From assembly GCA_964187785.1 (NCBI GenBank), contig OZ076409.1, positions 39,682,001 to 39,742,000 on the forward strand: a DNA stretch of 60,000 bases. The letters are read 5' to 3'. A program made the translations under genes and the position numbers. Below the pieces are notes generated by a model, which was given only the letters and a program-made list of their open reading frames with translations, made no database searches and was not told where the DNA came from. Shown one piece after another: positions 5,057 through 33,380 of this stretch (its first letter is position 1; every line of letters starts with the position of its first letter). This DNA is from Amphiscolops sp. MND2022 (Eukaryota).

Positions 5057-5063
5057 ATTAATT

Positions 5064-9550: not shown

Positions 9551-9569
9551 GTTGTTGTGATAAACTTGC

Positions 9570-12500: not shown

Positions 12501-12588
12501 CCAGAACTGTACAACGAGAAGACGAGAAGTTGATAAAAACGGAAGTATTACGGATTTAGGGCTCGTTGTAAATAACAATTTGAGATGG
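9570..12588 (+). mobile_element. Degenerate CR1/L2-group LINE: PHD-finger ORF1, APE endonuclease, RT; runs into the assembly gap
   Basis: ORF1 CEKC...VQCSKCVNWFHLACS...WVCESC; ILTETWL endonuclease motif; PPWIT; VIPVFKKG, QYGFRTG, DFQKALD and IPQGSFLG RT motifs; many stops. Confidence 0.85.
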
Positions 12589-12788
12589 NNNNNNNNNNNN
12601 NNNNNNNNNNNNNNNNNNNNNNNNNNNNNNNNNNNNNNNNNNNNNNNNNNNNNNNNNNNNNNNNNNNNNNNNNNNNNNNNNNNNNNNNNNNNNNNNNNNN
12701 NNNNNNNNNNNNNNNNNNNNNNNNNNNNNNNNNNNNNNNNNNNNNNNNNNNNNNNNNNNNNNNNNNNNNNNNNNNNNNNNNNNNNNNN
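12589..12788. other. Assembly gap (200 N)
   Basis: Run of N; the flanks are not necessarily contiguous in the genome. Confidence 0.99.
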
Positions 12789-13143: not shown

Positions 13144-15858
13144 TCAATTTTCTTCGTCTGAGTCATCTCCACGATTGTCACTGTTTTCTTTTCTTGGGTC
13201 TTGACTACCGCTGCATCGGCTGCTGGTGTTTCCGGAGCTGCTCCCCGACTGGGTCTCACTGAATTCAGAGCGGGCTACCGGATCTTCATAGTCGAACATT
13301 AACTGCTCGAAGGGATGAATTGTTTTACTTGCTCGGAGGACAACATAACGTTGATTGTTGTCGGCAAATACAATGACATCAGTGGACTTCATATTGGCTT
13401 CTAAAACTGAGTGATTGGCAAGGCGACCCATACATCTACTATCAGGGTGGACAGGACACGTTTCCGCGGAGGCATTGATTATCCTTCGGCCGGGTCCTTT
13501 GACTTCAAGACAAAACTCCCGTTTAACACCTTCAATGGCGGATACTTCGTCCATTGATGTCTTGAGGAAAACCTGCCCGTGGTAATCAATGACGACTTCA
13601 TTTTTCTGGAAAACTCGGGTGGCAACGATTCCTCGTCCAAACTTGCTAAATGAAACTTGCGTGACTCCGGGCCATTTTTGAGATCGACATCTCTCCATAA
13701 GCAAAGTTTGATCTTCAAACTCCATATTGCTTGCCAATCCTTTGTAATAAATCTTCTGAATTGCCTTGTTCGTTTCTACTTTTGGGGTAATAAATATTGG
13801 GAGCACAAGTAGATAAACTTTTCTCAGGTCTTGGTTGCAGTCATTCTGCATCGTCCACTTCTGTCGCTGGAAATAGCTCTTCAGTCTCATTTCCAACGAA
13901 GCAAGGTCAGTTTTTCCATTCATATGCTTGAAAAAAGCATGGGCACGAGCTGATTGGCGGGCATATCTCTGTCGCTCCTGGTGCCTTCTCACCGCCGACT
14001 GCACGACCTGGTAGTCCAAGGCAATGTCCAGAGTCTGCCAAATTGCTCTAGTTTGGACCTTCAACTTAGGGAGTACTGCTTCAGTGTCGTTTGCGATGGG
14101 CAACACAACATGAAGGTGCCGTTCCAATTCCCACAGCGGGCTAGCACAGTGTTTCAGTACCTGTTTAAAACGATACCAACATTGAATTGTGTCTAAATGC
14201 ATTCTGAATTAATGATATCAACAGTGTACGTGTCACAGATAGATCGACCCCTGATTGGTACCAAAAACTAGCAAAACTAGCTCTACAATATAAATTGTCC
14301 CAGTTTCCACGGATTTTCAGTATAATTTGACTTGCTCAAAGAAAGCAATGCGGAAAGCAAGACCATATCTTTAAACACATGGCGTGGAAACCAGATACAA
14401 ATCTTAATACATTGCGAACTTTCACTCAAAGGGGTGTACACATTATTGCGCGTTACCATGAATGTCCTAGATTCCACGGTTTTAAGTTTGAATTGACTTA
14501 CTCAAAGAATGCATTGCGGAAAACAAGACCATATCTTTAAACACATGGCGTGGAAACCAAATACAAATCTTAATACATTGCGAACTTTCACTCAAAGGGG
14601 TATACACATTATTGTGCGTTACCATAAATGTCCTAGTTTGCACGGTTATTGAGTATAAAACGGCTCGCTTTTAAAAGTCTTCGAGAAAAAAAGACCATAT
14701 CTTTGAACACATGGTGAAAATCGAATACAAATCCTAACTCATAGTTCTATTCAAAGGGGTGTGATGATGATTTGTTTATACATACCGACTCCATATATTG
14801 GTCAACAACGTGGCTAGGTCGGAAGTTGGATTTCCCAGCTGAATTCACAAAAAACAATTCGGTGTACAGGATCCGATTGTCTGTCTCACTCAGCAGTCTT
14901 TCGAAAGGAGTCCCCTCACCGTGGTCCAGAAACTCGCTTCGAACACTCACGAAGTAGTCCACAAAGCCTTCCAATAACCATCGTGGGATATTGTAGCACG
15001 TTTTTCTGGCGCACCTCTCCGCTACATCTATCTCAAGCACGGAAGAGGCATTTTGGTCGTCTGATTCTTTCATCTTAACTGCTGCCTGCGCCACGGCGTG
15101 GACAGTCACATTGCTGACCTCCCGATCCAGAAAACCCAAGAATATTAAAACGTAAGCCATTAGACTTCGAAAGAACTCTATTTGGACCTTTTTCGTAGCC
15201 AGAATTCTCTTACTGCAACGCGATACATTCTCTGTTATTGTCCATTTAATGAAAGACTCCACTGTATCGGTTTTGTAATCAGGCTTCTTCTTCTTGGCGG
15301 GAACAGTCTAAAAAATGGAGAGTTTTCAAAAAGTGTCTTTATTGTATTTAAAACTGATAACGCATCCTCCAGGAATTAAAAAGTAAATTGGTTTCTATGA
15401 AACGTAACCCTTAATTGGAACGCAAAATTTGAACAATATGTATTCAGAAGTTTTACTATACTTACCATATCAACTGGTGGGGGCATTGGACGTTTGTTTG
15501 CTACATTATCGGAGCTTGGATGTCCATTGGACGGTTTTGGAGGAATTATGATCTCAGCTGGTAATTCGCTCTGATTGTTTAAAAGCTCGTTTATGACCTC
15601 TTCAGCTTCAGTCGGGAGATGTTCCGTTATTATTCCATCCTCATTGAAGCTGAATTCAGGTGGCTCTTGGAGGCGGAACGGAGTGCTGTTGAGTGGCCCG
15701 CCGGGTGTTTGGCTAAACATCACGGGCGATACCAGGGGCGTGAACAAACCAGAAGGAGTTTGCATTTGGGTTAATGTCAGAGGCGTAGACATGTCCGCGG
15801 AAGACGGTGTTGGAATTGGGGGCATCGACAAAGGCAGCGAGGTTTTATTTTGTTCCAT
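13144..15858 (-). CDS. Spliced ~643-aa protein: Pro/Ser-rich N-terminus + tyrosine-recombinase-like domain + SETD8/PR-Set7-like SET methyltransferase
   Basis: Phase-0 exons 15858-15466 (ATG|gtaagt), 15307-14786 (tttag|ACT, TCG|gtatgt), 14160-13144 (aaacag|GTA). SET motifs GRGIVATRVF, VIDYHG, GRLANHS, EQLMFDY. YR-like segments RSLMAYVLIFLGFLDREVSNVTV, LLEGFVDYFVSVR, LFFVNSAGK, TRAIWQT and RHQERQRY. Confidence 0.8.
14290..14760 (+). repeat. 166-bp repeat array 1 (~2.5-3 units) in intron 2 of the SET gene
   Basis: gacttgctcaaaga.. recurs at 14329 and 14495; same unit at 18950, 22980 and 25390. Confidence 0.9.
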
Positions 15859-16156
15859 TTAGGAAAGTTAGATTTTCTATTTTGACGGTCTGATTTTCAG
15901 AGACGATTTCAAGATAATGATTGTAGATTTCGAATATTTGTTTATATGAATTACGATAATATCTGATATTTAGTAATTAGTAGTGCCATATCCGGCTGTG
16001 CGACCGAAAACCTCAATCTTAAATGAGGCATGTAAAAAGCGTTATTTCGGAATGAGTCTAGTGTCTTCATTTCCAATTATTCCTAATAGTGCACCTGCTT
16101 CGTAATTAGGTGACGATTAGCTGTAATTAATTTGGGATGCAACCAATCTCGTTAGC

Positions 16157-16476
16157 GTCTTCTTTAACGCTCATCCCATCAACATTCATCACATAAAAAG
16201 TCTACATATTCTATTAGTTTCGAGCTTTAAAATAAAGTCTTCTTTAACGCTCATCCCATCAACATTCACCACATAAGGGGTTTACACATTCTATTAGTTT
16301 CGAGCTTTAAAATAAAGTCTTCTTTAACGCTCATCCCATCAATATTCACCACATAAGGGGTCTACATGTTTTATTAGTTTCGAGCTTTCAAATAAAGTCT
16401 TCTTTAACGCTCATCCCATCAACATTCACCACATAAGGTGTCTACACATTCTATTAGTTTCGAGCTTTAAAATAAA
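16157..16476 (+). repeat. 4 x 80-bp tandem repeat ending at the start codon (copy 1)
   Basis: gtcttctttaacgctcatccc... at 16157, 16237, 16317 and 16397; ATG at 16478. Confidence 0.95.
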
Positions 16477-16477
16477 A

Positions 16478-16849
16478 ATGCTTCTCCAAACCTTCTATGA
16501 AAATGAAGTTGTGCAAATCTTGGATCCTGCGACATCAATTTGGGAATCAGCGAAAATAATTTCCTTTGTGAGCGATTGGTGTGTAAGAATTAAATGGGTC
16601 GATTGGTCTTACAATAAAAAAGAAGATATCACTGTTCCCGAAGTATACAGACCTGACAAAAATTACTGGAATATTAGAAAATCCCACAATCTTGTCCGCG
16701 AAGAAACTGTGAGCAACAAAAGACGGTCAACACCTCTTAGCTACAACGCTCGTCGACTGGTCAGAAACGATCAAATTTACTTTTGGCAACCACAATGTAA
16801 CTGTGTAGATAGGAATGAGGCTAGTGTCTTCATTTCCAATTATTCCTAA
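16478..16849 (+). pseudogene. Truncated duplicate of the Tudor-like gene (N-terminal domain only, 123 aa)
   Basis: Near-identical to the first ~110 aa of the 17241 ORF, then reads into the duplicated promoter and stops. Confidence 0.75.
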
Positions 16850-16919
16850 TAGTGCACCTGCTTCGTAATTAGGTGACGATTAGCTGTAATTAATTTGGGA
16901 TGCAACCAATCTCGTTAGC

Positions 16920-17239
16920 GTCTTCTTTAACGCTCATCCCATCAACATTCATCACATAAAAGGTCTACATATTCTATTAGTTTCGAGCTTTAAAATAAAG
17001 TCTTCTTTAACGCTCATCCCATCAACATTCACCACATAGGGGGTTTACACATTCTATTAGTTTCGAGCTTTAAAATAAAGTCTTCTTTAACGCTCATCCC
17101 ATCAATATTCACCACATAAGGGGTCTACATGTTTTATTTGTTTCGAGTTTTCAAATAAAGTCTTCTTTAACGCTCATCCCATCAACATTCACCACATAAG
17201 GTGTCTACACATTCTATTAGTTTCGAGCTTTAAAATAAA
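16920..17239 (+). repeat. 4 x 80-bp tandem repeat (copy 2)
   Basis: Same units as 16157-16476, shifted by 763 bp. Confidence 0.95.
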
Positions 17240-17240
17240 A

Positions 17241-18679
17241 ATGCTTCTCCAAACCTTCTATGAAAATGAAGTTGTGCAAATCTTGGATCCTGCGACATCA
17301 ATTTGGGAATCAGCGAAAATAATTTCCTTTGTGAGCGATTGGTGTGTAAGAATTAAATGGGTCGATTGGTCTTACAATAAAAAAGAAGATATCACTGTTC
17401 CCGAAGTATACAGACCTGACAAAAATTACTGGAATATTAGAAAATCCCACAATCTTGTCCGCGAAGAAACTGTGAGCAACAAAAGACGGTCAACACCTCT
17501 TAGCTACAACGCTCGTCGACTGGTCAGAAACGATCAAATTTACTTTTGGCAACCAGAATGTAACTGTGTAGATAGCGAAAGATGCCAAGAGGACCGTTGC
17601 TGCGGGTCAGTTGTGATGGGTTGGGTAAAAATTAATGACCCTTTCTGTCAACAATGTTTGATAACCGACGTCGAGGACAATGATGAGTATGTTTCGTATC
17701 GCCAACTAAGAAATAAACCTTGTGTAAGAGACACTGAACCAGAAATTGATGAAACTGAACAAGATCATGAATCAGGATCTGACGTACATCGCCCATTCGT
17801 CAAAAAGCAAGCCCGTGTGACAAGCGCCACCCAACCGATGCCACAAGTCGACATTCTTTCCTTGCTTCCCAGTGTTGACGATGACGTTGAATTAACATAT
17901 GCACCCTGTGAAAATGATATCATAAAGGTAATGTTTTCTTGCTTTTTTGCTTACAAACTTTGCTTTTGAATTTTGATAACCCTGGATTGGCACCAAATTT
18001 TTCAAAGTATTTTTCCCACCAAATATTTGTTCAATCTTTTTATTTTCAGGTGGGATCTATTGCATCTTACGCAAATGATGATTTTGAAATCAAGAAGATT
18101 TACTATGATCATCAGAAGAGAAAAGCATGTGCATTCATGCAGAGCAGAAGTGACCCTGACATTGAAGTGCGCATCCCGACAATTCGTGTTGTCACAACAA
18201 CATCTTCTAAAGGCGATGTAATGGATTTTAATTCGCTTCTGGAGCCCATGGACCAAGCCTATGCTTTGTTTTCTGCAATAAAACGAATGGTGGGACTCTC
18301 AAGAAAGAAGCATTCCTTAACCGCAACATTAGTTCCCTGTACCCCACTGACAAAAAAACTCTGTGGCTTCGAAACTGGCAATCTCAAAGAGGCCGTTAAG
18401 TATAGTGTTGCAAACCAAGAGGGACATAAATGGTGCAACGGTACATGGGATACTGTACTTGGAAGAAATTGGGATATGATCCCATGTCACGCAAGCGATG
18501 GAGAAGATGTTCTTATAAAGACAATGAGGTTCATTGAACATCGAGAATTTGGCATGTTCACGATTCGTGTCCAGTTTTTGTCAAGCCAAGGCCACTACAA
18601 AAACAGCCAATATAGAGATCTGTTCGAAATGTACCTGTCTCAGATGCATGAAATACTCTTAAATACTCCTAAATTTTAA
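17241..18679 (+). CDS. Spliced ~438-aa protein with an N-terminal Tudor/chromo-barrel-like domain and an unknown C-terminal domain
   Basis: Exons 17241-17927 (AAG|gtaatg) and 18050-18679 (ttttcag|GTG), phase 0. FYENEVVQILDPATSIWESAKIISFVSDWCVRIKWVDW has the spacing and aromatic residues of Royal-family barrels; Cys-rich middle region. Confidence 0.7.
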
Positions 18680-18949
18680 AAAAACTTTCTATTCGTGTTT
18701 GATCATTTTTTGTTTCTTCAACAATTTATCTTTCATCATTATTAGTAATTATTACAATATAAGCTCCATGACCTTGTATTCTTGAAAATTCTTGAGAAAA
18801 GTCTTAGACTATCGAATTACTTTATTCTGAAATGTAATGCACTTGTCACATATAGATCAACCCCTGATTGGTACCAAAAATGATACAATCTCAACAATTT
18901 CCGGGATTTTATTTGCATGTTTTCCAACTTTTTTCAGGATATTTGATTT

Positions 18950-19365
18950 GCACCAAAAAGCAATGCGGAAAACAAGGACACATCCTAAAAAACATGGCAT
19001 GAAATCAAAACACAAATCGTAATGCATTGCTCAATTCTGTTCGTCTCGGTTTCCACGGATTTTCAGTAAAATTTGACTTGCTCGAAGAATGCAATGCGGA
19101 AGTCAAGACCATATCTTTAAACACATGCCGTGGAAACCAAATACAAACCTTAATACATTGCGAACTTTCACTCAAAGGGGTATGTATGTATGCAGACACC
19201 GGATTGCGCATTACCATAAATGTCCTGGTTTCCACGGTATTTAAGTGAAAATTGACTTGCTCAAAGAAAGCAATGCGGAAAACAAGGACATATCTTTAAA
19301 CGCATGGCGTGGAAACCAAACACAAGTCCTAATACGTTGCTCAATTTCATTCGAAGGGGCGTAGT
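18950..19365 (+). repeat. 166-bp repeat array 2 (diverged), between the Tudor-like gene and the transposase
   Basis: caatgcggaaaacaaggac...gtggaaacc...cattgcgaactttcactcaaagggg units. Confidence 0.85.
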
Positions 19366-19762
19366 CATGGTTTTCAGAAAATAATCAAACAATTTTTGTT
19401 TTTCTTTTTTTATTACCTTTTGAGTATTTCCAATCAGATAACGCTTTACCAAGATGAAACAAACAGTCCTGAGAAGTGAAAACTTCTAATTACGAGTGAT
19501 AAGACTTAATGGAAGACTCTTTTGCATCTGATTGTGATTATTGACAAAATGGCCTTGGGTGATATGGACTCAAATTATTAAAGTATAATTGAACCGTAAT
19601 TCATCAGTTTAATGAAGAGACTCAAAACCGGACTCATTTCACTTGTGGGTTTGTGTATCTAATTGCATTTCATTTTATTGTATGGTGAGGGTTGCAGTCT
19701 GACAAATGTTCTACAATCTATACAATTTCACTTTGCAATAAACCTAAAAACCAGCTTTAGAA

Positions 19763-22700
19763 ATGACTCCACTGTCAATGTGGGAAAGAAATATTATCGA
19801 AGCGGAAAATGGGAAATTCTTCGCTAACTGTCGACTTTTTGACGATATATCCGGAAAAGAAATACCGAATAAGTTTCGGAAGTTCGAGACACTTGTTGGG
19901 GAAATGTTGACTGGGACAAATTTAAATTCAAAAGAATTCATTCGAAGAATTGCTGTTAAAGGCCAGAAAACCCCCCCTGTATTTGTAGCAGCAAAATTGG
20001 CAAAACTACTTGTACTGCGTGGATTTAAAGACTTCCCTTGGAACTCAGCCAGAAGAGAGTTTGTCAGTTTGTTTTTCAATAATGATGTCATACCATATAA
20101 CAATCCTTACATGAAAGACACCCTTGTGACACCTGCAGATGCGACTCCTGAAGATTCGGCCCCTGAAGGTCAAGTCAGTGACAATTCTCTCTCAAAAGAA
20201 AGAAAGCTAGAAATATCAGACGCCAAAAAAGTCAAACATGAACAAACTGATCCAATTAGAACAGATCTGATGTCAGAAGTTGGGTTCAACAGTTTCATGA
20301 AAAAAATCAAAAGCTCTGCAAATAAGAGAAAAGATCAACGATTCACAAAAAAGAGGACCCAAACTTAGTCAAAAAAATTGTAGAAGATCTTTTCGAAAAA
20401 AGAGGATCTACTGATGAGTTCAGGCACCATTTATCTCTTGTCACGAAAACGGGTAACACGGAAGATGTTATAAAAGTTATTCGAACAAGACTTTCAATTG
20501 TTGGACTCGGATACAATTTAGTCCCATGCATTCGATTGGTCAAGAAGTCAACATCCGAAATTCAGTCCTACTTTACAGCAATGTGTGAGCCAGAAAGAAC
20601 CTTTTCTGGTTTTCGCTGCAACCTGATAAAATGCGTGGAGACGGTGTCATACTTCTTGTTTGGAACGAAAGAACTCAATGGCCAACGAGTTGATATCTGG
20701 GGAGATGGTTGTGAAATTGGAGGTGTCGAAACAACACGAATTGCATTCCGGATCCTTACTGACAAAATGAAGTGTCAATCATCCGATGCAGTATTCTGTT
20801 TTGCTGCATACAGGGGTAAAGATAGTAGATTCGCAATGGAGCAAAACCTTGGGCCAACTATAGCTGGAGTTCAAGAGTCTGGTTGGCTTTTTATGAAGAC
20901 CCTGGAACTATCAAAACGCGGAGTTAATTTAACATACAGTGGCGATTCGCCGTTTTTAATGAGATTGGTGCTCGGAATCACAAATGAATCAGCTAGCCCA
21001 TCGAAAATGCCACTCTATATAACAGAACTTGATTACACACCAACAAAATGTCATCATGAAACTGGTCTACGATCTGATGTTATTATACCCTTCAGAACGG
21101 ATCTTCCAAAATCTTCCTTGGTCTTCTACGAAAATATACAATCAGTTTGTCCTGATGCCACGCATATGACCACCCGTTGTGTTGAAAATGACCTCCAAAG
21201 AATTGCACAGAAAATTATCAGAGAAAAGCATCCTAATCATGATGTAGCAATTCGCCAGCTTGAAGAAAACTTGACAAGAAGAGATGCGAGACCATACTTT
21301 CAGTTCAACATATCTCATAGAAGTGGTTCGTGTATCGGTACTGTAGGTGCAGTATCCCTCTCAGGTGGTAGTGCTCTAGCGGTCATTGCTGATAAAGAGG
21401 AGCTTGCAGGTGCAAAAGACGGTAAAATTAGCGATCTTTACCATGGTGTTTGGGGTCCCGAAGATATCATTGTTGGCAGTGAAGAAAACGCAAATGTCCC
21501 TTGCGTTAACATCCTAAGAAACTGGTTTCCTAAACTTTTCAATAAAAATAACCCCAAGCAAAAAGAGTCCAATGACAAATTCATATCTGCTTTTGATGCT
21601 TGCGAACTCCTGCGATCGTGTTTAAACCAATGTGTTTTATGTCTGCGAGCAGAAGAATTCAACAGTGAAACGTTCAAAAAATGGGCTGAAGTTTATTACC
21701 AAACCAATATCTTGATATTCGGGCATGCCGGTTTGACACCTTATAAATTGAAAATGCTGATGTTTCCTCAACTTGTTGAGAGTGGATATATAAAGATATA
21801 AGACCATTTGATCATTTGTGTGAAGGTCTTGAAAAATCGAACCACCAAGCTAATCGTGGCTTTCAGACAAAGACAATGCGCGGAGAAGGTAAGATCTATC
21901 ACAAGGATCCACTATTCCTCGAGTCGTCCTTTTCTTTCTTGAAATTTTTAAGATTCGCAGTTGAAGTTGAAGACAAAGGCTCGGACGCTGAACCAACTTC
22001 TAAGATTATCATGGAACCTGAACAAGACGCAACAACAGAGGTCTACTTTGATGACCATAATATGACTGGAAACAGAAAGATCTATCAGACAGTTTCGAAC
22101 AGTACCACAAACAGCGTAATGAGTATACTTCATAGTGCAACAAAAGTGATGGGCATTGACGTTCCGGGACCTGAGTACCTTGATATTTGCCGCATAGAAC
22201 CACCGTTAACAACTATCGCCATTGGATGTCAAGAAAATCCTTTAAGTGGATTAAGATTTTGTCTGCTTGGTCGCTTGGGTACTTGGAAAAAACATACTCT
22301 AACACATGACATGGTGAAACAATTGATCATCAATATGGGAGGAACTGTTCTAGAAAATGAACGAGCTGACGTGTTGATGAGCACCCATTCACAGCTCCCC
22401 AATTGTTTTGTTCTCGTCAAGGACGAAAAAGACTTAATCTTAGGTACCGGTTCCACAGAGGAAATTAATGACATGAAGAAATCAAGGAAAAGAGGGTCAT
22501 CAGTAACACGGGAGGGTGGAAATGAACCATCACAATATTCCAAAATAGCAAAACGATTCGCAGCTGGGGGTTTCAAATTCTTGAATATCGAATTTTTATC
22601 TGAAGTTGACGAGAAAAAAATGCTGATTGACCCGGAGCCATACATTCTTCAGCCCGGATCCAAACTTGTTGAAAATCGTGTCAACGACAAAGACCTTTGT

Positions 22701-22841
22701 TCTTGGACCAATGCAGTGGAAAAACACTGGGTGAAGGTGTATCTGCGATTGTCGCTCTCAAGAGATACCGTGATGGCACTTTTAAACAACTTTCGTTTTG
22801 ATTTACTGTTCTCTTCTAATTCATATGTTACCCGAACTTGA
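19763..22841 (+). CDS. RAG1/Transib-like DDE transposase with C-terminal BRCT domain (~1000 aa; frameshifted in this assembly)
   Basis: Ordered RAG1-core-like motifs: IWGDG (D1), QSSDAVFCFAAYRGKDS, SGDSPFLMRLVLG (D2), CPDATH, LTPYKLK, CEGLEKSNH (E). BRCT-like PLSGLRFCLLG...VKQLIINMGGTV. Frames join at the A6 run 20347-20352 and at ~21795-21800; possible third shift at 22689-22691. Confidence 0.75.
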
Positions 22842-22979
22842 AACTATTCAATAAATTCTTCAAAAATAAGTATTTTCATTAGGTTTATTAAGATGCTCCT
22901 ACGAAACTAGTTTTACATATCATAGATTGGTGCCAAAAAGCACACAATATTGGGCTCCGTTTCGGCAAACTTTCGTTTG

Positions 22980-23365
22980 TCTTGGTTTCCACAAATTGAA
23001 TGCGCATTACCACAAATGTCCTAGTTTCCACGGTTTCAAGTTTGAATTGACTTACTCAAAGAATGCAATGCGGAAAACAAGACCATATCTTTAAACACAT
23101 GGCGTGGAAACCAAATACAAATCTTAATACATTGCGAACTTTCACTCAAAGGGGTATACACATCATTGCGCGTTACCATGAATGTCCTAGTTTCCACAGT
23201 TTTAAGTTTGAATTGACTTACTCAAAGAATGCAATGCGGAAAACAAGACCATATCTTTAAACACACGGCGTGGAAACCAAATACAAATCTTAATACATTG
23301 CGAACTTTCTTTCAAAGGGGTATACACATTATTGCGCGTTACCATAAATGTCCTGGTTTCCATTG
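22980..23365 (+). repeat. 166-bp repeat array 3, between the convergent transposase and JmjC genes
   Basis: Two near-complete units starting ~23049 and ~23215. Confidence 0.9.
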
Positions 23366-23617
23366 AGTTTTTACCTAGCGGAAATTCACTGTTGAGGTAT
23401 ACTCCTGATTTTTCTCCTATTATTCTTGCATAATCTTGGAAATTATTGCATTAGACGTCCAAACGTTTCAAAGCATGTTTTGAATAATTGAGAATTTTTC
23501 AATTCGTTTTCCAATTAAACTTCTTGCGCTCGTCACTGAATAAAACAGATTGTAAGGTATTTGGCAGTTTTGTCATTTATTTGTATGATACTGAAAATCT
23601 AAATCTGAATCTACAGT

Positions 23618-26600
23618 TTAATCTAAATCTAAAATATCTAGTTCAAGGGGGATTGAGCGGATTCCCGTAATGGCAGCAACAAGAGGACAGCGTTTTGGGT
23701 GCAAAGATGGATCTACCATCTTTGCCGGCAAGAGAGTTCTTCCCTTGCCTTTAACATGGGTAACCATCATTGCAGGTTTTGACTCGAGTTCTAGTAGATC
23801 CGTTGTCGTCATTACTTCCTCGTAGCTTTTCGTGTAGGGGTCAACAGCGATGGGCACATGCTCTGGAACAGTAAGAGCCTTACTGGGGTCAGTATTCTTC
23901 TCGGGATGCTCTCTCAAATAACTGCGGCTGCTGCTTGGTGGCTCACGCAGTGTCACTGAAGCTCTTTTTTGGCCCAGTACGATGTGAAGTCTTTCAGGAC
24001 TGAAATCGGGTAGCACCTGTAAAACGTAAAAATCAAACTTTAAACCTGGAGAGCAAACTTTCAATTGAAAAATCCGAAATATTTTTGGTATAGTTCTTGT
24101 TTATTGACTTAGAAGCACAAAATTTCACTCAGTTGTGTTTTACTTGCATGTATATCAGTCAGACATGAATGTAGAGGATGATCAATTGAAAAAAGCAAGA
24201 CTTGTTCATAAACATAAGTTTTTGAATTAGAAAATGACCCTCGATTGGAACCAAAATGGAAATGATTGAAAATGGAAAATTGAAGTTTTGTGACCAAACA
24301 AGAGTGAAGGCTTAACAATCTTACTTCACGGGCGGCGTGTTCATTGTATAGTGATTGCACTGTGCTGTACATCGACACCAGGCGTCGACAGAGTCGAGGG
24401 CACAGCTTTTCGGCAATACGGTACATCAGAAGTACCAACATCTCTGGAAGATCAGGGAACTTGTCATCGGATCTTCTCGGGAACTCGACGATGATTGAGT
24501 GTCTTATCATGGGCAGGTGCCCGAACGCCAGGAAGTTCGTTCCCAACGAAATGGCATTGCCTTTCGTAAGTACAAAGTGGAGGAAATTTGCGGGCATGAC
24601 TAGAACATCTCCAGCTGTGACATGCAACCGCAAACATCCCTCTTCCAGCTGGTCGATGTTCCCGAAGAATGTTGGCCTGAAAATAAAAGTACATCGAAGT
24701 TGCTTTTCTAATTTTTTGACATCAATAGAAGTAAACTAGAAAAAAGTTTAAATATTTGAAAAGAGACGTTAAATGCTTGCTTGTTGTTTTCCATCACCAA
24801 AAAATGTTAGTCAAAAAGTATAATTGTTTGTTTTTGAAAATAGAACAGTGTTCTTGAAGACAATAAAGTTGGTGTATTAGTTAAGTTTTGTTACTTACGT
24901 AGTGTCGTTCTCAGCATTCGACCATCTTTCAAAATTACTGAGGTTTTTCTTCGACGGTTTCACCAAGAAGAAAATCTTCTCTCCAGTTAGAACTGTGTAA
25001 AACACAGACGTCGAAGAATAATCCTGATGCCACGTCGTGTGCGCAGAATCTTGAGTGACCAGGACATAATAGGGAGTAGAACAAGAGTAATGCTCGGTTC
25101 TCGACTTCCCGATCTCCCTGTCGGCCAAATGGTTGATGGAGTTGTCAGCCACCATCTTGGGTACTGAGTATATGGCCTTGGGGAGTGTCCTGACATCGAT
25201 GACGTTTAGAGGGTAATACCGACTGCCTGGATGACAGTTGGCCAGCTCCACGAAAAACTCGTCATACGCGTGTCTGCAAAAAAACATCTATTAAATGATG
25301 CTAGGCAAGGTTCTAATTCATGTTATCAACAGTATACTTGTCACAGGTAGATCGGACCTGGATTGGTACCAAAACGAACTCGACATAACTGTCCCAGTTT
25401 CCACGGATTTTCAGTATAATTTGACTTGCTCAAAGAAAGCATTGCGGAAAGCAAGACCATATCTTTAAACACATGGCGTGGAAACCACATACAAATCCTA
25501 ATACATTGCGAACTTTCACTCAAAGGGGTATACACATTATTGCGCGTTACCATGAATGTCCTAGATTCCACGGTTTTAAGTTTGAATTGACTTACTCAAA
25601 GAATGCAATGCGGAAAACAAGACCATATCTTTAAACACATGGCGTGGAAACCAAATACAAATCTTAATACATTGCGAACTTTCACTCAAAGGGGTATACA
25701 CATCATTGCGCGTTACCAGGAATGTCCTAGTTTCCACGGTTTTAAGTTTGAATTGACTTACTCAAAGAATGCAATGCGGAAAACAAGACCATATCTTTAA
25801 ACACACGGCGTGGAAACCAGATACAAATCCTAATACATTGCAGAACCTCACTTGAAGGGGTATACCCATGGTTTGTGTTTTGGAACAACTAAATTCGGTT
25901 TTACTAAATGCTAAACATGGTTCAAACGAGTAAAAAGTGTTTTTTACCTCTCCGATTCTGGCTGACTTGACTTCAATTGGAGCATCAGGTTCAGCAAGGT
26001 TGACCGGTCGCAGAAGCCGTTTGATCTCCGCGACAAAGCCTTTTTTTCGCGGAGAATTTTGGGATTTTCAGTCCTGTGCAATGCTTGGCTCCATTTCTCC
26101 AAATCAAGGGGACACCATGTCGAAGAAAGTGACCAAGGTGTTCGGTTTGATTGTCATGGGGACCCTGCCACTCAGCGTAGGAAAATTGACATTCCAGAGG
26201 CACGTTTTCGCAAAATGCGAAGTGCTCTTGGGTGCCAAATGGGGCCGCTGGAGTCCCAGAATTGAATGTCAAATCAAGTGGCATCGGTGGTTGGGCAATT
26301 TGACATTTGACTGATCTCGCAATGTGGTTCCTTAGGCTGTAGCCGTACCCGAATGAGGTCCCACACGAAATGCAGAAATGACGGCTTCTTTTTTTTCCTC
26401 TCGCAGCTTCTGTAATTTCAAAGACAATTTATCAAATGAATGTCCAAAATTTTTTCTCATGAATTTCATTCATGGTATGACCCATGATTGGAACCAAAAA
26501 TCTTCCAAGATTTCATGAATGCTTTCATAGTATGACCCATGATTGGAACCAAAAATCTTCCAAAGATTTTATGAATGCTTTCATGGTATGACCCATGATT

Positions 26601-28030
26601 GGAACCAAAATCCTTCCCGAAAATTTGTGTTTTTAGACCTTCCCTTTCACATCAGAAAAACATTGCCCTTCTTTTTCTATTGCATACGGTAATCGGTTCA
26701 AGACCGTAAAATATTTCAAAACAAGAAAAAAAATTCTGGAAACAATCTTAACACTAACGGTATTGGTACATCCTGACTTCTTCTCCAGCAGCAATCTTTT
26801 CTTGTTGCTTCGTGCAATATTTGGCTCTTCTTTGATGGCGCTCTTTACTTTTTTTGGTCGTGAAAATCTGACCACATTTCTCGCACGTCAAATTCTGGGC
26901 AACTTGTTCCTGCTTGCTGACACTTTTGCATCCGGGAAGATGACGGGTTAAGTGCCATTTTCTTCCAGCAACGTAGTCGCAATTCGAACACGGGAAACCT
27001 AAACATAGCCTTTTGAATTATACGAGATGAAGAAGTCAAATAAAAAACCAACCTATACATACAATATACATACCAAAATCAGATTGTTTTCCACGAGTTA
27101 CAAAAATGATAGGTTTCATTTAGATTGCTCGAAACTTTGAAAAATGGTAGACATGATATATTGATCCACGTGATGTTTGATTTGTCAAACTATTTATCAT
27201 TTCAATTTCAATATCAAAAAATGGAGATTGTCGCTTGTCAATTGGAATTGTCAAAACGAGTACAAGAACGAGTAAATGGAAGTCTTACGTTTTTTAGGTG
27301 GCGGAGTTGTATCTCGAAATTCGTCACAGAGTTGTCGTTTTCGGTTTTCTGGCAAACCAGGGCAAGTGCGGGCATGAACAGCAAGGGCTTCTCGAGTGGG
27401 GGCATAATGGTCGCAAGCACCGATTGTGCAGAGATGACCTGAGTAATGAAACAACGATGAAAATATATACAAAAAATGTGAATATATTCAAAAATTATTT
27501 TTTGAACACCGCTGTTCATACAGCCTCAAAATTTCAATACAAATAAATCCAAATAAAGTAAAGAAACGTTCATCAAAACTTCAAACATTTTTCATCTTCG
27601 CAGTTGAATTTACCCGTTTCAGCAGTTTGATAGTTTTTGACCTTTTTCACTGATAGTCAAGAAAAAGTAACGCAGGAATTAACGACTTACCAAGGAACAG
27701 TTCTGATGATGAGTCAGATGAGTCCATGCGGGATCTAAAGTTCTGCGAAGTGCTGGGTCCGCTGGGTCCGGGGGCTTGCTCAGAAGTACTTTGCTCAGAA
27801 GCAGCTGTTTTCTTCGATTTCGGCTGTAACAACTTGAAAATGTGAATAAAAGGTCCAAAATATCAAGTGCAAATAACATGAAATTTAAATTAGTTCAAAT
27901 AACGAAGACAAAATTGTTTACGAGAAAGTTTGGATCTTTCCGTCTCATCCCCCCATCGATTTAAGTCCCCCAGTTATTATTAAATAAAAGTTTTATAAAT
28001 TACCTTTAAAAAAATATTAAAGTATCTCAT
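23618..28030 (-). CDS. Spliced ~716-aa protein: four C2HC zinc fingers + KDM2/KDM7-type JmjC histone demethylase domain
   Basis: Phase-compatible GT-AG exons: 28030-28004 (tentative), 27823-27691, 27438-27289, 26998-26759, 26409-25948 (one extra base in T7 run 26041-26047), 25287-24899, 24676-24325, 24016-23618. JmjC motifs TTWHQDYSSTSVFYTVLTGEKIFFLV and AGDVLVMPANFLHFVLT..SLGTNFL with intact H-x-D...H. Fingers CTIGAC..HARTC, CSNC..HLPGC, CEKC..HQRRAKYC, CISC..HIARSVKC. Confidence 0.85.
25390..25870 (+). repeat. 166-bp repeat array 4 (~3 units) in a JmjC gene intron
   Basis: Unit starts at 25423, 25589 and 25755 (exact 166-bp period). Confidence 0.92.
26465..26620 (+). repeat. 3 x ~55-bp tandem repeat in a JmjC gene intron
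   Basis: tcatggtatgacccatgattggaaccaaaa-type units with GATTGG at 26486, 26541 and 26597. Confidence 0.9.
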
Positions 28031-28394
28031 TAAACATACAATTTTTTTGGAAAAGAATCTGCGTAAAACAATTTGAAAGTTATCAGGACACTGTTTGAAA
28101 AACTGCCCTAAACTTTGAACCAGAATCTGCTTCTCAATTGTAAAATCAATTACAGTAGGGGGCTTTTATAACGACCCAAAGGGGCAGTTGATTTTAAACT
28201 GATAATTTCCTGATAAAATCCAAAAACAGTTTCTTGGAATTTGGGATTAAAATTGAAACAAGTAGAAGCCAAGACGCAATGAATAGCTAACTTTAATTTC
28301 GACGCTCTGAATACTTTTGTTTATTCCAATCTTGGAACCAATCTTTGAAAAAAATCCATAAGCAAAATCAATACAAAGACACTTTAGTGAATTC

Positions 28395-28556
28395 CCAAAT
28401 AACATAAGAGCAAATATCATAAAACGAAATTAGTTTCAAATGACAAAAATGAAATGAGTTTGACATTATAAAATAAAATTGTTTACGAGAAAGTTTCATT
28501 TTCATGTTATTTGAACCTAATTTTGTTTTTATGCTATTTGCTCTTATGTTATTTGG
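28395..28556. repeat. ~160-bp imperfect palindrome (foldback/MITE-like)
   Basis: ccaaataacataagagcaaata...aaatgaaa pairs with tttcattttc...tatttgctcttatgttatttgg; partial relative at ~27856-27930. Confidence 0.8.
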
Positions 28557-28822
28557 TACCTAATCGACAATTTTTCAACCAAAAATTTATTTCCGAAAAC
28601 GAAAAAATCAATTTACCATTATGATTGGCTTCGGGTTATATCCGTTGATTGGCTGAGGGTAGTATCGGCTGCTGGATGTCTGCAAAACTTTGAGTTGTTG
28701 AGAGAATCAAAGAGAGATTCAATGGGAGATTCTGGCTTGTTAATCAGTTAACAGTCCGAACGGTGAGAAAACAAGTTTGACAATGAAAACTGCCGGTCAG
28801 TTAGCAATCGGTCAGTTGCTGT

Positions 28823-28988
28823 GATACGCGCCGCTGATACGAGCCGCTGATTAGCCAATAGGAATCACCCACAGTTGGAACAGTCATCAGTTTGGTACGA
28901 GTTGCTGATACGCGCCGCTGATTAGCAAGGAAATTACTCACGATTGTAACAGTAATGATTTTGATACGAGCCGCTGATACGCGACGCT
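28823..28988 (+). repeat. Five copies of a GC-rich 13-mer gatacg(c/a)g(c/a)cgct
   Basis: Copies at 28823, 28836, 28907, 28963 and 28976. Confidence 0.85.
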
Positions 28989-29854
28989 GGTGAGCTTTCA
29001 AGCGATGACCGATAAGGCAATAACAATCATATCTGTTCTAATATTGTTGACAAGCAATAAGTTTAAAAGCAAATAGAAAGCAGTTTCTCGATGACCGTGT
29101 AAATTCGAGAATGTTCTAGAAAATATTCGAAAAAAAATATTCGAATACGAAAAATCTTAATCTTTTGCTGTTTATTCTTCGCCTCGAATCTTGATAAAAT
29201 TCAGTACGAATTTGGCCTCTAAACCTGAAGCATAATACATCATTGGTTGCTTTCATTTTCACGCCCGAAACGATCAATAGAAACCGAAAATCTATAGTTA
29301 ACGATTTCAAATATCGTTCAAATAGATATCATTTTGATTAATTTTGCTCAGATTCGACCCATGATTGGAACCAAAATCTCCCCATTTCTCCACTCTAATT
29401 ATTCAAATAAATTTTTCATTTTCCAGTATAATTTATTTCAGTATAAATGTAGTATTTCACTCTTGTGTATCACTATAGTATAAAAATATTCCAGTATAGT
29501 ATAGTGAACATTATAGTTAAGTATAGTACAAGTAACCTGAATCTTTTCAATTGCATTCTAATTGACTATTTTAATCAAATTTTTATTTTTATTTATCTAA
29601 GCAGCTTTACGATTCGACCCACGATTGGAACCAAAATCCCCCGAATTCCACGAAGATTTTAAAATTTCATTAAAATAATTTATTCCAGTTGGTATAAATG
29701 TATTTCACTTTTGTATATCACTATGTACAATCAGTATAAGTATTTTGCACTTTGGTAAAGTGTTGAAAGAAATTTTCCTTTTTCGTTTTTTTTAAAATTC
29801 ATTTTCAAATTTCATTTTTTCAAATTCAAATGCAGTCTGTATAATTGTAGTACG

Positions 29855-29881: not shown

Positions 29882-30270
29882 ATGAAAGGAAGAGAAGCCG
29901 ACAGTTTTACGGAAAGAGAGACATTGATTTTCACTTGTTTGTGGAAATTGACTTTGTATTTACTCTCCGGCTTATTAAATTTGATTTCAGCTAATTAAAA
30001 TGTAAGTGGAAAGTAAGACGCTGAAATTTGCAGCCATCTGATTGGTTGTAATGCACTTTGTGGAATCCAAGACACGAATTTGGCGGCATCTTGTCGGCAT
30101 TTGTCGGCATATTTTTGGTCCCAGTTTCCGCAAAATGAAACCGGCTAACGTATTAACCCATGCCCTCGGATTCCGAAAAACACCGATTTTCGTGGCGTGG
30201 ATTCCGCAAAATCAGTGCTAAATTGCCAATTTTGCACGCTTTAAGACATGTCTGCGGAATCGGAGGGCCT

Positions 30271-33200
30271 ACACGCACAGAAATGTGTCTGTAGCGATTT
30301 AGCTTGCAGATGCACAGTAATGCGAGGTCTTGGAATGGACAGAACAAAGACTGTCACAGATGTTGGCAGTCAAAGAGCAACAGCACAACCAGAAGTGAAA
30401 TTCGCCTCATCGAAGCCGTCGATCACTCTCAGTGCAGACGCGAATCGGTTACCGCCTGCGTTTGGAGGAATGCAGAGTGGTGCATTGCAAGTACCACAAC
30501 TTGCGAACACACAAAAACAGTATTTGCCCAGTCAAGGACCAAACTTTTCCTCAAATGCAAAAGATGACTACTACATCAGATCTAGCTTGCCAAAACTGAA
30601 GTTGGCAGATTTCTCAGGTGACCCAATGGAGTGGCCAGAGTGGTCACAACTATTCCAAGCAACCGTCCATGCAGCGAACATTGACGACAGTGTAAAAATG
30701 AATCACCTGAAAACAATGGTCACGGGCAAGGCGAAAGAGGCTATTGCTGGTCTAGGGTACACTGCTGAGATGTACAATCTGGCGTGGAAAGTTCTAGTTC
30801 GATACTTTGGAAAACCTCAAATGGTTGTGAACGTCCAGTTGAAGCGAATCTATTCCTTCCCTCCGATGAAACCTTACGATGGAACCACATTGATCAAGTT
30901 TGCGAGAATAGTGTCGAGTTGCGTGAAAGTTTTGACACAATTCAACTACGTGGGAGACCTAAACTTAAAAGGAGTTCTGGGCAGTGCCACAAGGAAGTTA
31001 ACACTGGACATGAAAACGAAGTGGCTCACTTATGTCAAGCAAATGAACCTGTATCAACCGGGACTCGCTGTGTTCAGTGAATGGCTAAATGATATAGCGG
31101 ATATTCAGGATGAATTGCTTTTGTATTCGAATCCAAAAGCTGATCGCGCGAAGACGAGCTACAAGGAAAAGGCCGAAGGCTCTACGTTTGCAACATCAGC
31201 AACAAACAGGGCAAATGACAACTCGAAAAACCAGAGAGAGTGTGTGTTGAAAGACGGCAAACACCCAATTTGGAAATGCGAAAAGTTCAAAAAAATGAAC
31301 GTCGAAGAAAGAGGACAAAAGGCGAAAGAACTGAAGTCGTGCTTCAAATGCTTGTCAGATGCACATCAGATGAGAACTTGCTCTGGTAGACTCTGTGACG
31401 TCAATGGTTGTGGAAAACCCCATCACAGATTGCTACACAGACCTTACAACGTGGAACAAAAGAAAAGCGTTGAAAATGTCGACGAGGTTTCAAACCTGTC
31501 CTCAATGAGAAGCAGTGGCGTGCTTCCCGTCATTCCAGTAACGATAGGGAGTGGGCGCAAAACTCTGAAAACGTTCGCTTTGTGCGACTCAGGAGCAAGC
31601 CTGTCCTTTGTGGACGAGAGCCTGATGATAACGCTAAATCTGATGGGACAGCCAGTGGATATGAACGTTGCAGGGATTCATGAAACGTCAGATATTAGTA
31701 GTAAACGACTTCGAGTCAAGATTGGAGATCACGACGGAAAGGTCAAAGAAGATAATATGGCATATAGTCATCCCAACGTGATTGCAGGAAATCGAACGTA
31801 CAACTTCAAGAAATTGAAAAGAAACATATCCTCACCTGTCAGTTTTGAAAGACTCAACCATCAACCTGAAAGATGTCAAAGTCATCTTAGGCCAAGATTG
31901 TTATCATCTGCATAGAGCAACTGACTATAGAAAGTGTGGAAACGCAAAGCCGTGGGCAGTGCGAACCAAGCTGGGATGGATGCTCAGTGGACCCTTGCCT
32001 CAACAAGAAAGTGCGAAACTCGCAACTGAAAAGTTGTTCGCAGCAGAACTGGACTCATTAGCGGGGCAAATGGAAACCCAGTAGACCATGGGATTGTATG
32101 CCCTGAACTGCAGTGTATCCGGGAGGTTGGAGGCAAATAAGAAGAGCTCACGGGACATTTTCGTAGTAGAACGCAACTGGCAGGAAGTCAACACTAAAAC
32201 CCTCCTCGTAGAAATCAAGCAAGTCTGGCAAGAAGAAATGCAACTTGTTGCAAGTGATCATAATATTGTCAAACAAGAAAAGAACAAGGAGTTTTCACTT
32301 ACAGAAGAAAAGAACGAACATGAACGTGTCGCAATTACATCAAACTTTCGAACCTCGGAAAAATTTTGTGTAACGCTTGACTTGCTGAAATAGAGTATAG
32401 GTGTCGCATCTGTAAAACAGCTTGTCAAAGAAAAGTATTCAACGCAATTGCAAGCAACGAATGTTACTGTCAACACTCTAACACTTTAAGAAGTAAAAAG
32501 GTGTTCTCAATTGGAGAGAGATATTGAATTCGTGAATAAGAGCCAAATTGAACTTCATGAAGTCCCAAGAGGCAAAGCGATAAATCGAAGACCCTTTGGT
32601 GGTTTGTTGAAGCCAGACCAACCGACTGAAGAAAACGCGAGTAATGAAAGAAAAGCCTTAAATGTGTCACTTGGGAGAAAACATGACGTTGGCTTGAATG
32701 AAAAACTGCTGGACAAAATCATTCCAAACGACAGGGTAAATTGTAACAATTGGTTAGGTAATGGAAATTCGGGAATGGATGCAGTGGCACAAGCTAATGC
32801 GTATACCCAACTGAGAAATAGCCATCCCAAGCAATTCGAGAAACGAGCTTGGAAATTTGAACATAGCTCACACCTATTAGATGAAATGGACGAAGGGGAT
32901 CCGCTGAATCAAGATGGCATACTAGAAGCAAAAAATTCGACAGATGAATTTGCAGGCGAAATATCACTGATGGAAACGCCAATGGGTTCTTCAAAAGCCC
33001 GAACAACAACAGGCTGTAAAATTGGACCTTGCATAGGGCCGGCTGTATCATGGGAAGAAATGATGTTGCAACTTCAATTCTTTGGAAAATGCAATTAAGA
33101 GGAAATTAGACAACTTGAAGTCAATGATTTGGTTTGGATAGTGGATGAGAATGTGAAAAGAGCGCACTACAAGATGAGTAGAGTGTTGGAAGTCTATCAT

Positions 33201-33380
33201 GGAGGTGATGGGCGAGTGAGATCAGTGCTGGTGAAAACTGAAGATGGAAAACTCAAAAGACCAGTAGTGAAACTGGCACCCATGTTCTACGAAAGTGTTT
33301 TTCGGGAGAAAAACAGGGCCGGCAATGTTGGCGCCATACAATTGCGAGATCAGAAACTCGAATTTGAACGTGACTGATGA
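30271..33380 (+). mobile_element. Internally deleted, 5'-truncated Bel/Pao LTR retrotransposon (gag, protease, pol C-terminus; RT/RNaseH/integrase core missing)
   Basis: LPKLKLADFSGDPMEWPEW gag; Pao Cys-His cluster C..KHPIWKC..CFKCLSDAH..C..CDVNGCGKPHHRLLH; ALCDSGAS protease; WAVRTKLGW; GGDGRVRSVLVKT..LKRPVVKLAP; purine-rich tract then TGTTGG (probable 3' LTR start) at 33326. Confidence 0.85.

What the first reader, a model, noticed from the sequence alone, without database searches (positions are those of the whole stretch)
23618..28030. Hidden 8-exon gene: four C2HC zinc fingers joined to a catalytically intact KDM2/7-type JmjC domain
Three of the four fingers are missed by the ORF track but appear once exons are joined in matching phases. 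The Fe(II) ligands (HQD...H) and the 2-oxoglutarate-binding T/K positions are retained. Host KDM2 and KDM7 proteins pair JmjC with CXXC/PHD/F-box or PHD domains, not with C2HC finger arrays. The architecture is therefore atypical and suggests a sequence-targeted demethylase, a plausible anti-silencing factor.
Basis: partly seen in the sequence, partly recalled or inferred. Interest (0 to 1): 0.8.

Follow-up and report, generated by a model that had tools for sequence, protein, structure and literature searches.

The report
Broken transposon-borne zinc-finger histone demethylase
The zinc-finger plus demethylase-like gene is real but frameshifted twice in this copy, and it belongs to a many-copy family that likely rides inside a jumping DNA element, where intact copies would likely strip silencing marks from the element's own chromatin.

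Summary
The eight exons, four C2HC fingers and all JmjC catalytic residues are present. The gene is not intact, though. It has one extra base in exon 5 and eight missing bases in exon 6, and translation stops at 25993, before the catalytic core. Relatives read through the exon-5 break (22 of 30 exon-5 proteins). Finger plus JmjC occurs in single open frames in relatives, so the fusion is real.

It is not a canonical host KDM2/7. It has no PHD, CXXC or F-box, sits in a separate 56-row group, and has many near-identical copies. It lies tail to tail with a broken RAG1-like transposase carrying a BRCT domain, near a SETD8-like gene. A 13-base word occurs 12 times in this 15-kb stretch, always non-coding and on one strand, and nowhere else in the window (0.66 expected).

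Best reading: a dead copy of a cut-and-paste transposon whose intact copies carry their own histone demethylase, probably against silencing. The word is a candidate finger target. Element ends, splicing, activity and binding are unshown. The scan reported this family before, in this genome and in fungal retrotransposons.

The parts
28004..28030 (-). Exon 1 (predicted; ATG at 28030)
   Evidence: splice signal and phase only
27691..27823 (-). Exon 2, low-complexity Ser/Pro-rich stretch
   Evidence: splice signals and phase; no Pfam hit
27289..27438 (-). Exon 3 with finger 1 (Cx4Cx12Hx3C, 27430-27362) and a basic tail
   Evidence: no Pfam hit
26759..26998 (-). Exon 4 with fingers 2 (26990-26928) and 3 (26885-26814)
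   Evidence: Pfam zf-C2H2 E 1.5e-06
25948..26409 (-). Exon 5 with finger 4 (26374-26303) and the N-terminal part of the JmjC region
   Evidence: the X read-through aligns to JmjC relatives from residue 279-289 on
26041..26047 (-). Frameshift 1: one base more than relatives in an A run
   Evidence: frame switch in tblastn of relatives; left out in X1
25991..25993 (-). Premature TGA reached after residue 322
24899..25273 (-). Exon 6, JmjC core: N 25206, I 25200, Y 25068, T 25038, H 25029, D 25023, Y 24999, K 24978; frameshift 2 (8 bases missing) at 25268
24325..24676 (-). Exon 7 with the third metal ligand H 24579, N 24537 and a likely helical tail
23618..24016 (-). Exon 8, C-terminal tail to the stop; no family match
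19748..22838 (+). RAG1-like DDE transposase with C-terminal BRCT, broken into four pieces by three frame changes; candidate acidic triad at about 20692 (DIWGDG), 20935 (YSGD) and 21822 (EGLEKSNH)
13147..15858 (-). Three-exon gene ending in a SETD8-like SET domain
   Evidence: Pfam SET E 1.5e-10; SETD8 best PDB match E 4.9e-06
17241..18679 (+). Two-exon gene whose N-terminus resembles a Tudor/chromo barrel (recalled resemblance only; no Pfam hit); truncated duplicate just upstream
14253..29635 (+). Span of 12 copies of GATTGGHACCAAA (14253, 17985, 18866, 18945, 22925, 24243, 25361, 26486, 26541, 26597, 29363, 29623), all non-coding
25384..25869 (.). 166-bp satellite in intron 5; sister arrays at 14290-14737, about 18840-19370 and 23001-23362
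26457..26617 (.). 56-bp tandem repeat in intron 4, each unit holding the 13-base word

Best explanation
This is a twice-frameshifted copy of a multi-copy gene joining four C2HC zinc fingers to a KDM7-like JmjC domain, likely carried as cargo by a roughly 17-kb RAG1-like cut-and-paste transposon whose intact copies would likely use it to erase repressive histone methylation on their own DNA. Shown: the exons, fingers, catalytic residues, two frameshifts, many near-identical relatives, the neighbouring transposase and SET genes, and the confined repeated word. Inferred: (a) the four genes move as one unit; (b) intact copies are active Fe(II)/2-oxoglutarate demethylases for mono- or dimethyl-lysine, most likely H3K9me1/2 or H3K27me2 (KDM7 substrates, recalled); (c) the fingers replace the host PHD reader and dock the enzyme on the element's 13-base word, so that element genes stay transcribed. 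This copy would make at most a 322-residue finger-only peptide. Odds by step: broken here as assembled 0.95, broken in the living genome 0.85, transposon cargo 0.85, active enzyme in intact copies 0.75, DNA-sequence targeting against silencing 0.4-0.5.
For: Breaks. Of 30 exon-5 proteins, 22 read open across the A run. Decay: 8 of 11 coding differences between the window and X1 change the residue; 5 of the 8 are private to the window by comparison with P0036 and P0211. Multi-copy: 14 relatives among 25 candidates at 63-99% identity; P0211 sits on 10 contigs. Not canonical: the 56-row group holding the window is split from 76 canonical rows, support 98. Catalytic constraint in that group: T 51 of 56, Y 53 of 56, K 49 of 56, N 41 of 56, against a median column agreement of 0.36. 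The residues match PHF8 H247, D249, H319, T244, Y257, K264, N189, I191 and N333 (PMC9516565, passages). A relative's model (P0104, pLDDT 74.8) ranks PHF8/KDM7 first, E 2e-22, with JMJD6 at 9.5e-13. Fusion in one frame: P0077, P0190, P0232. Transposase: the best Atlas hit of relative P0005 is RAG1, 0.95 with 181 of 256 features; BRCT at Foldseek probability 0.99 but E 0.32; relatives in clusters of 93 and 17. One unit: the word occurs 12 times against 0.66 expected, in 0 of 100 shuffles, only at 14253-29635, and all 12 are non-coding. It lies on the same strand in introns of genes on opposite strands, so it is not a splice signal. Precedent: VANC targets often form tandem repeats (PMC5735166, abstract); TET/JBP and SET genes ride in DNA transposons (PMC12730594, passages).
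Against: No terminal inverted repeat or target duplication was found; the left end runs into an N gap at 12589-12788. I saw no second locus with the JmjC gene and transposase together: the two metagenome loci are 1.1 kb and no genome is held. The transposase lacks the C(2)C and H(3-4)H motifs of the CMCT clade, had no PDB sequence match, and its model was poor (pLDDT 38.6) with no fold match at E 0.001. The fingers are widely spaced, lack canonical linkers and end in Cys like protein-binding FOG fingers. The word's core is nearly palindromic and could be a transposase or host-factor site. The neighbouring SETD8-like writer does not fit a simple erase-silencing story. The count of 83 in the P0200 cluster is inflated: 5 of 15 listed members are satellite ORFs, and the contigs may come from more than one assembly. 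The tree is a quick, unrooted search on 140 columns with long branches. The 19 of 150 hits dropped before it (short or lacking HxD) include decayed close copies, so the H and D counts are partly selected. X1 depth is about 2.4, so its single differences may be errors. The P0104 model used an alignment that held canonical KDM7 rows.
Confidence: 0.5

Rival explanations
1. Same transposon cargo and active enzyme, but the CCHC fingers are protein- or RNA-binding adaptors. The enzyme is recruited by the transposase, the Tudor-like protein or a host factor, and the 13-base word is a transposase or host-factor site.
For: The fingers are spaced 12-30 residues apart without tandem linkers. CCHC fingers of FOG1 bind GATA1 (PMC3927085, one passage). 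Relatives P0077 and P0190 show only one finger in their frame. Pfam gives weak zf-C2H2_jaz hits for finger 4 of relative P0226 (E 0.083).
Against: The word is spread through introns across the element rather than at the ends, as VANC targets are in non-coding regions (PMC5735166 abstract and headings). Four fingers are enough for a 13-base site (inference).
Confidence: 0.25
2. The JmjC and the SETD8-like gene are an eraser-writer pair for H4K20me1 that, with the BRCT-bearing transposase, tunes repair, replication or target choice during transposition rather than transcriptional silencing.
For: SETD8 is the best PDB match of the SET exon and PHF8 of the JmjC exon; PHF8 acting on H4K20me1 is recalled. 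A BRCT domain lies on the transposase.
Against: Both matches are weak in identity and do not fix substrates. The loop after HxD differs from canonical KDM7 (S or T for G in 55 of 56 rows). A shared mark was not tested.
Confidence: 0.13
3. This copy is intact in the living genome and the breaks are assembly errors.
For: Frameshift 1 lies in a homopolymer, a typical long-read error. X1 lacks both lesions. The window has a scaffold gap.
Against: The 8-base loss is not a homopolymer slip. Five private residue changes and three transposase frame changes accompany it. X1 carries its own extra 1-base loss at 26061, and 8 of 30 relatives are also broken or cut short in exon 5.
Confidence: 0.1
4. A host KDM2/KDM7 ortholog, or a domesticated host gene cluster, at a fixed locus.
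For: Eight-exon structure with ordinary splice sites; KDM7-like core.
Against: No PHD, CXXC, F-box or LRR; outside the canonical group; many near-identical and decayed copies; flanked by retroelement debris.
Confidence: 0.04
5. A remnant of an endogenous giant virus that captured a demethylase, as in Amoebidium.
For: Intron-bearing KDM4-like genes occur in Amoebidium viral insertions (PMC11244446, passages). The nearest Atlas clusters of finger exon 4 are small C2H2 proteins of giant viruses, score 0.97 (a lead only). One of 5 candidate stretches in viral contigs encoded a transposase relative, but no locus was returned.
Against: The window ORFs I read and scanned show no viral hallmark gene (Pfam on 16 pieces only). 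No JmjC relative in viral contigs, 0 of 12 candidates. The unit is small and centred on a DDE transposase.
Confidence: 0.04

Closest known systems
KDM7 family (PHF8/KDM7B, KIAA1718/KDM7A, PHF2, ceKDM7A)
   Same: Best sequence and fold matches; iron triad, 2-oxoglutarate residues and methyl-lysine pocket positions kept.
   Different: Four C2HC fingers instead of a PHD; HQDYSS instead of HIDFGG; separate long-branch group; multi-copy beside a transposase; this copy frameshifted.
KDM2A/B
   Same: Same JmjC subgroup; second-best matches (E 6.5e-06 by sequence).
   Different: No CXXC, PHD, F-box or LRR.
VANC anti-silencing proteins of Arabidopsis VANDAL transposons (PMC5735166, abstract and headings)
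   Same: Transposon-encoded accessory protein; short motifs in non-coding tandem repeats of the element as likely targets.
   Different: VANC is reported to cause DNA hypomethylation; here the accessory gene is itself a histone-demethylase-type enzyme, and binding is untested.
TET/JBP-carrying fungal DNA transposons and SET-carrying HarbingerS/MuDR (PMC12730594, passages)
   Same: DNA transposons, CMCT types among them, that carry a chromatin-modifying enzyme proposed to escape silencing.
   Different: Those act on DNA or write histone marks; this is a histone eraser with its own fingers, in an intron-rich genome, next to a SETD8-like gene.
KDM4-like JmjC genes of Amoebidium giant-virus insertions (PMC11244446, passages)
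   Same: A genomic parasite that captured a histone demethylase, lost the host reader domains and kept introns.
   Different: KDM4 type, JmjC only, viral carrier; here KDM7 type with added fingers and a DDE transposase.
RAG1 / Transib / CMCT clade transposases
   Same: RAG1 best by language-model features; D, D, E motifs in RAG1-like context.
   Different: C(2)C and H(3-4)H zinc motifs absent; BRCT at the C-terminus; no RAG2-like partner seen; termini not found.

Membership tests
KDM7 (PHF8/KIAA1718/PHF2) | JmjC with H-x-D...H iron triad | tested here: met
   H 25029, D 25023, H 24579; spacing 76 against 72 in PHF8 (PMC9516565 numbering)
KDM7 (PHF8/KIAA1718/PHF2) | 2-oxoglutarate residues N189, T244, Y257, K264 | tested here: met
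   N, T, Y, K at equivalent places
KDM7 (PHF8/KIAA1718/PHF2) | Methyl-lysine pocket I191, F250, N333 | tested here: met
   I and N kept; F250 is Y here and F in 42 of 56 of the group
KDM7 (PHF8/KIAA1718/PHF2) | N-terminal PHD finger | tested here: not met
   no PHD hit in any exon scanned; C2HC fingers instead
KDM7 (PHF8/KIAA1718/PHF2) | Groups with canonical HxDFGG proteins in a tree | tested here: not met
   outside the 76-row canonical group, support 98; quick unrooted tree
KDM7 (PHF8/KIAA1718/PHF2) | Jumonji helical domain after JmjC | tested here: inconclusive
   no Pfam JHD hit for exon 7 or P0104; helices follow the core in the P0104 model
KDM7 (PHF8/KIAA1718/PHF2) | Demethylase activity on H3K9me2/H3K27me2/H4K20me1 | not testable with these tools
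   needs an assay on an intact copy
KDM2 | CXXC, PHD, F-box and LRR domains | tested here: not met
   none found
Classical DNA-binding C2H2 finger arrays | Cx2-4Cx12Hx3-5H/C fold spacing | tested here: met
   four fingers, last ligand Cys; two have Hx6C; Pfam zf-C2H2 on exon 4
Classical DNA-binding C2H2 finger arrays | Tandem fingers joined by short TGEKP-type linkers (recalled) | tested here: not met
   gaps of 27, 14 and 30 residues without that linker
Classical DNA-binding C2H2 finger arrays | Sequence-specific DNA binding | not testable with these tools
   candidate site only
CMCT / RAG1-like DNA transposons | RNase H-type D, D, E transposase | tested here: inconclusive
   RAG1 best Atlas hit at 0.95 and motifs present, but no PDB sequence or fold match
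CMCT / RAG1-like DNA transposons | [quoted passage not shown] | tested here: not met
   no CxxC after YSGD and no His pair before the E in P0005 or the window ORF
CMCT / RAG1-like DNA transposons | 5'-CA..TG-3' terminal inverted repeats and 2-5 bp target duplication | tested here: inconclusive
   no pair found; left end in or near an N gap
CMCT / RAG1-like DNA transposons | Dispersed multi-copy family | tested here: met
   many JmjC exon-5 variants on different long contigs; transposase relatives in clusters of 93 and 17 at 60% identity
VANC-type anti-silencing systems | Accessory protein binds short motifs in non-coding repeats of its own element and removes silencing | not testable with these tools
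   motif layout fits; binding and effect untested

The most novel reading that the evidence does not exclude
A family of RAG1-like transposons carries a self-addressed chromatin-editing kit: a zinc-finger KDM7-type eraser aimed at a 13-base word planted through the element's own introns, beside a SETD8-like writer and a possible reader. It would be an enzyme-bearing counterpart of plant VANC outside plants and fungi, and part of a large unnamed JmjC lineage (56 rows at under 50% identity) that may live mainly on mobile elements.
Probability: 0.3. Interest if true: 0.88.

Novelty: new variant of a known kind. Interest (0 to 1): 0.65.

Why it matters
How transposons escape histone-based silencing outside plants is largely open. 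A transposon that carries its own histone demethylase, with a candidate targeting module and a candidate target word, makes the question testable with one binding assay and one enzyme assay. It would add a histone eraser to the known transposon-borne modifiers (VANC, TET/JBP, SET). It would also warn annotators that 'extra' KDM genes in repeat-rich genomes may be cargo. This copy is dead, so its value is as a map to intact family members.

Tried and rejected
No whole genome is held. No RNA holder was listed; 1 run was listed, X1, holding 0.34 of the words. X1 contigs retain introns and do not cover exons 1-3, which is no evidence either way.

A short intron or alternative splice sites to rescue the exon 5-6 phase were listed and rejected, because relatives read through in one frame.

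The search for terminal inverted repeats failed: best left-versus-right score 26, shuffle mean 24.35.

JmjC locus scans: metagenomes gave 2 loci of 25 candidates, both 1.1 kb and without context; viral contigs 0 of 12; prokaryote genomes 0 of 20. The transposase scan of viral contigs confirmed 1 of 5 candidates but returned no locus.

The transposase profile found nothing in the PDB, and its structure model was too poor to classify. The exon-6 search among longer proteins gave only 1 of 51 candidates, the decayed P0001. Earlier-finding look-ups by sequence, near and relatives were blank.

Paper searches listed no paper whose title or abstract opening describes a transposon-encoded JmjC demethylase. 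I judged most from listings only. Repbase Reports and subscription journals are not in the library, and no supplements were read, so an existing Repbase entry is possible.
Full report
Observation. Reading the minus strand gives eight GT-AG exons from 28030 to 23618 (exon 3 starts at 27438). Exons 1-5 join in phase and encode four fingers of the form Cx2-4Cx12Hx3-6C at residues 57, 107, 142 and 196. Exon 4 matches Pfam zf-C2H2 at E 1.5e-06. Exon 6 matches PHF8 (E 7.6e-11), KDM7A, PHF2 and KDM2A in the PDB. The equivalents of PHF8 H247, D249, H319, N189, T244, Y257, K264, I191 and N333 are all present, and F250 is Tyr (numbering from passages of PMC9516565).

The copy is broken. One of 7 junctions fails. 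Exon 5 read in its entry frame stops at 25993-25991 after residue 322, and it delivers phase 1 where exon 6 needs phase 2. Two lesions explain this. Relatives of exon 5 change frame against the window at 26042-26046. Of the 37 proteins listed, 5 are satellite ORFs and 2 belong to a distant lineage. Of the other 30, 22 read open across this point and 8 are shifted or cut short. Run X1, the only holder listed, lacks the extra base and has 8 more bases at 25268. P0036 and P0041 carry the matching extra residues at the start of exon 6. With both lesions accounted for, the seventh junction is also in phase (frame arithmetic). X1 has its own 1-base loss at 26061, at depth 2.4, so it is either another dead copy or holds an error. 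Eight of 11 coding differences between the window and X1 change the residue. By P0036, P0211 and P0197, five are private to the window and three to X1. This fits neutral decay from an intact master.

The fusion is real at family level. Finger 4 and the start of the JmjC region share exon 5. A read-through with X at both breaks aligns to JmjC proteins from residue 279-289 onward, best to the divergent relative P0104 (E 3e-31), ahead of canonical KDM7-type proteins (E 8e-22 or weaker) among 10 tested. P0077, P0190 and P0232 carry a C2HC finger and the JmjC core in one uninterrupted frame. Splicing of exons 1-4 to the rest is inferred from phase; no RNA was available.

It is not a canonical host gene. 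The representative search found 644 proteins at E 0.001 and listed 150. I kept 131 of the 150 for a tree, dropping 19 that were short or lacked HxD, among them decayed close copies. The quick, unrooted tree splits 76 canonical HxDFGG-type rows from 56 rows that include the window, support 98. Many of the 50 hits scanned, mostly long canonical ones, carry PHD or JHD. In the 56-row group the cofactor residues stay (T 51, Y 53, K 49, N 41 of 56) while the median column agreement is 0.36, and the GG after HxDF is replaced. A model of P0104 (pLDDT 74.8) ranks PHF8 and ceKDM7A first and JMJD6 far lower; its alignment included canonical rows. Exon 5 has 14 relatives among 25 candidates at 63-99% identity. 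One cluster has 83 members, of which 15 were listed: 10 exon-5 proteins and 5 satellite ORFs. P0211 lies on 10 contigs. These contigs are unnamed and may come from more than one assembly.

Surroundings. Tail to tail with the gene lies a transposase-like reading at 19748-22838. Its relatives are single ORFs of 955-1119 residues at 51-62% identity, in clusters of 93, 17, 3 and 1. The window copy changes frame three times against them. The core of P0005 is nearest to RAG1 by Atlas features (0.95), and its C-terminal part resembles BRCT. It lacks the C(2)C and H(3-4)H motifs that PMC12730594 (passages) gives for the CMCT clade. PDB searches by sequence and by fold did not confirm RAG1. Further left are a possible Tudor-like gene (recalled resemblance, no Pfam hit) and a SET gene whose best match is SETD8. 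Outside lie retroelement remnants: a reverse transcriptase at 11469 and a DUF1759 gag at 30245.

What ties these genes together is shared non-coding DNA. A 166-bp satellite recurs at four places between 14290 and 25869. The word GATTGGHACCAAA occurs 12 times at up to 1 mismatch, all on the plus strand and all between 14253 and 29635, against 0.66 expected; 0 of 100 shuffles reach 12. All 12 are non-coding although about half the span is coding. The word keeps its strand in introns of genes on opposite strands, so it is a DNA-level feature. Termini were not found, and the left end meets an N gap. Co-mobility is therefore inferred, not shown.

Mechanism. Most likely, intact elements express a finger-JmjC protein that removes mono- or dimethyl repressive marks from the element's nucleosomes and keeps its genes on, with the fingers standing in for the lost PHD and reading the repeated word. 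Each of these steps is inferred. VANC targets often form tandem repeats (PMC5735166, abstract), which gives the layout a precedent. The main rival is that CCHC fingers bind proteins, as in FOG1 (PMC3927085, one passage), and that the word serves the transposase. A second rival is an H4K20 writer-eraser pair acting on repair or replication.

Comparison and novelty. It works like a KDM7 by fold and residues but fails membership on the PHD and on the tree. Transposon-borne modifiers are known: VANC, TET/JBP and SET (PMC12730594). Captured KDM4-like genes occur in giant-virus insertions (PMC11244446, passages). Passages of bioRxiv 10.64898/2026.08.24.746577 hold no JmjC. Searches showed no description of a transposon-encoded JmjC demethylase, judged mostly from listings; Repbase Reports and supplements were not seen. 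The scan's own notes report the same kind of element several times in this genome and finger-JmjC cargo in fungal LTR elements; these are leads, not support. My transposon-cargo and frameshift reading was recorded before the first look-up. Verdict: new variant of a known kind, dead copy, interest 0.65.

Noticed in passing
window 16049-17585: 774-bp tandem duplication at 98.8% identity, giving a truncated and a full copy of the Tudor-like ORF, each preceded by four 80-bp repeats; a real duplication or an assembly artefact.
   Followed up: no
window 14786-14203: With the best-looking splice sites the SET gene's exon 2-3 junction is out of phase (0 against 2; worked by hand), so the SET gene may be broken too. 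Not checked against relatives.
   Followed up: partly
window 26760-26996: The nearest Atlas clusters of the two-finger exon are small C2H2 proteins of giant viruses (score 0.97). This may reflect length alone or a shared finger type.
   Followed up: partly
window 30050-30290: Cluster of GGATTCC/GGAATCC-like words related to the 166-bp satellite, ending in ...AAATGTG just before the BEL/Pao gag; a candidate right end of the element, with no left partner visible.
   Followed up: partly
window 28395-28556: 35-nt inverted repeat, 91% complementary with 92 nt between the arms, upstream of exon 1; 69-bp and 13-bp tandem repeats at 28822-28989.
   Followed up: no
P0209 and P0229 (one 78-kb contig): These proteins begin with exon-8-like residues joined to exon-5 sequence, so some family copies are internally rearranged.
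   Followed up: no
L001 220-780 and L002 112-760: Two short metagenome contigs encode members of the same divergent JmjC group with HQD...H intact, so the lineage occurs in other organisms; no context is visible.
   Followed up: partly
window 48486-53563 (-), 30245-33377 (+), 45002-47135 (+), 9320-12530 (+), 1850-5459 (-): Frameshifted BEL/Pao-like LTR elements and LINE remnants fill the flanks. Labels are from reading the translations; only two pieces were scanned.
   Followed up: no
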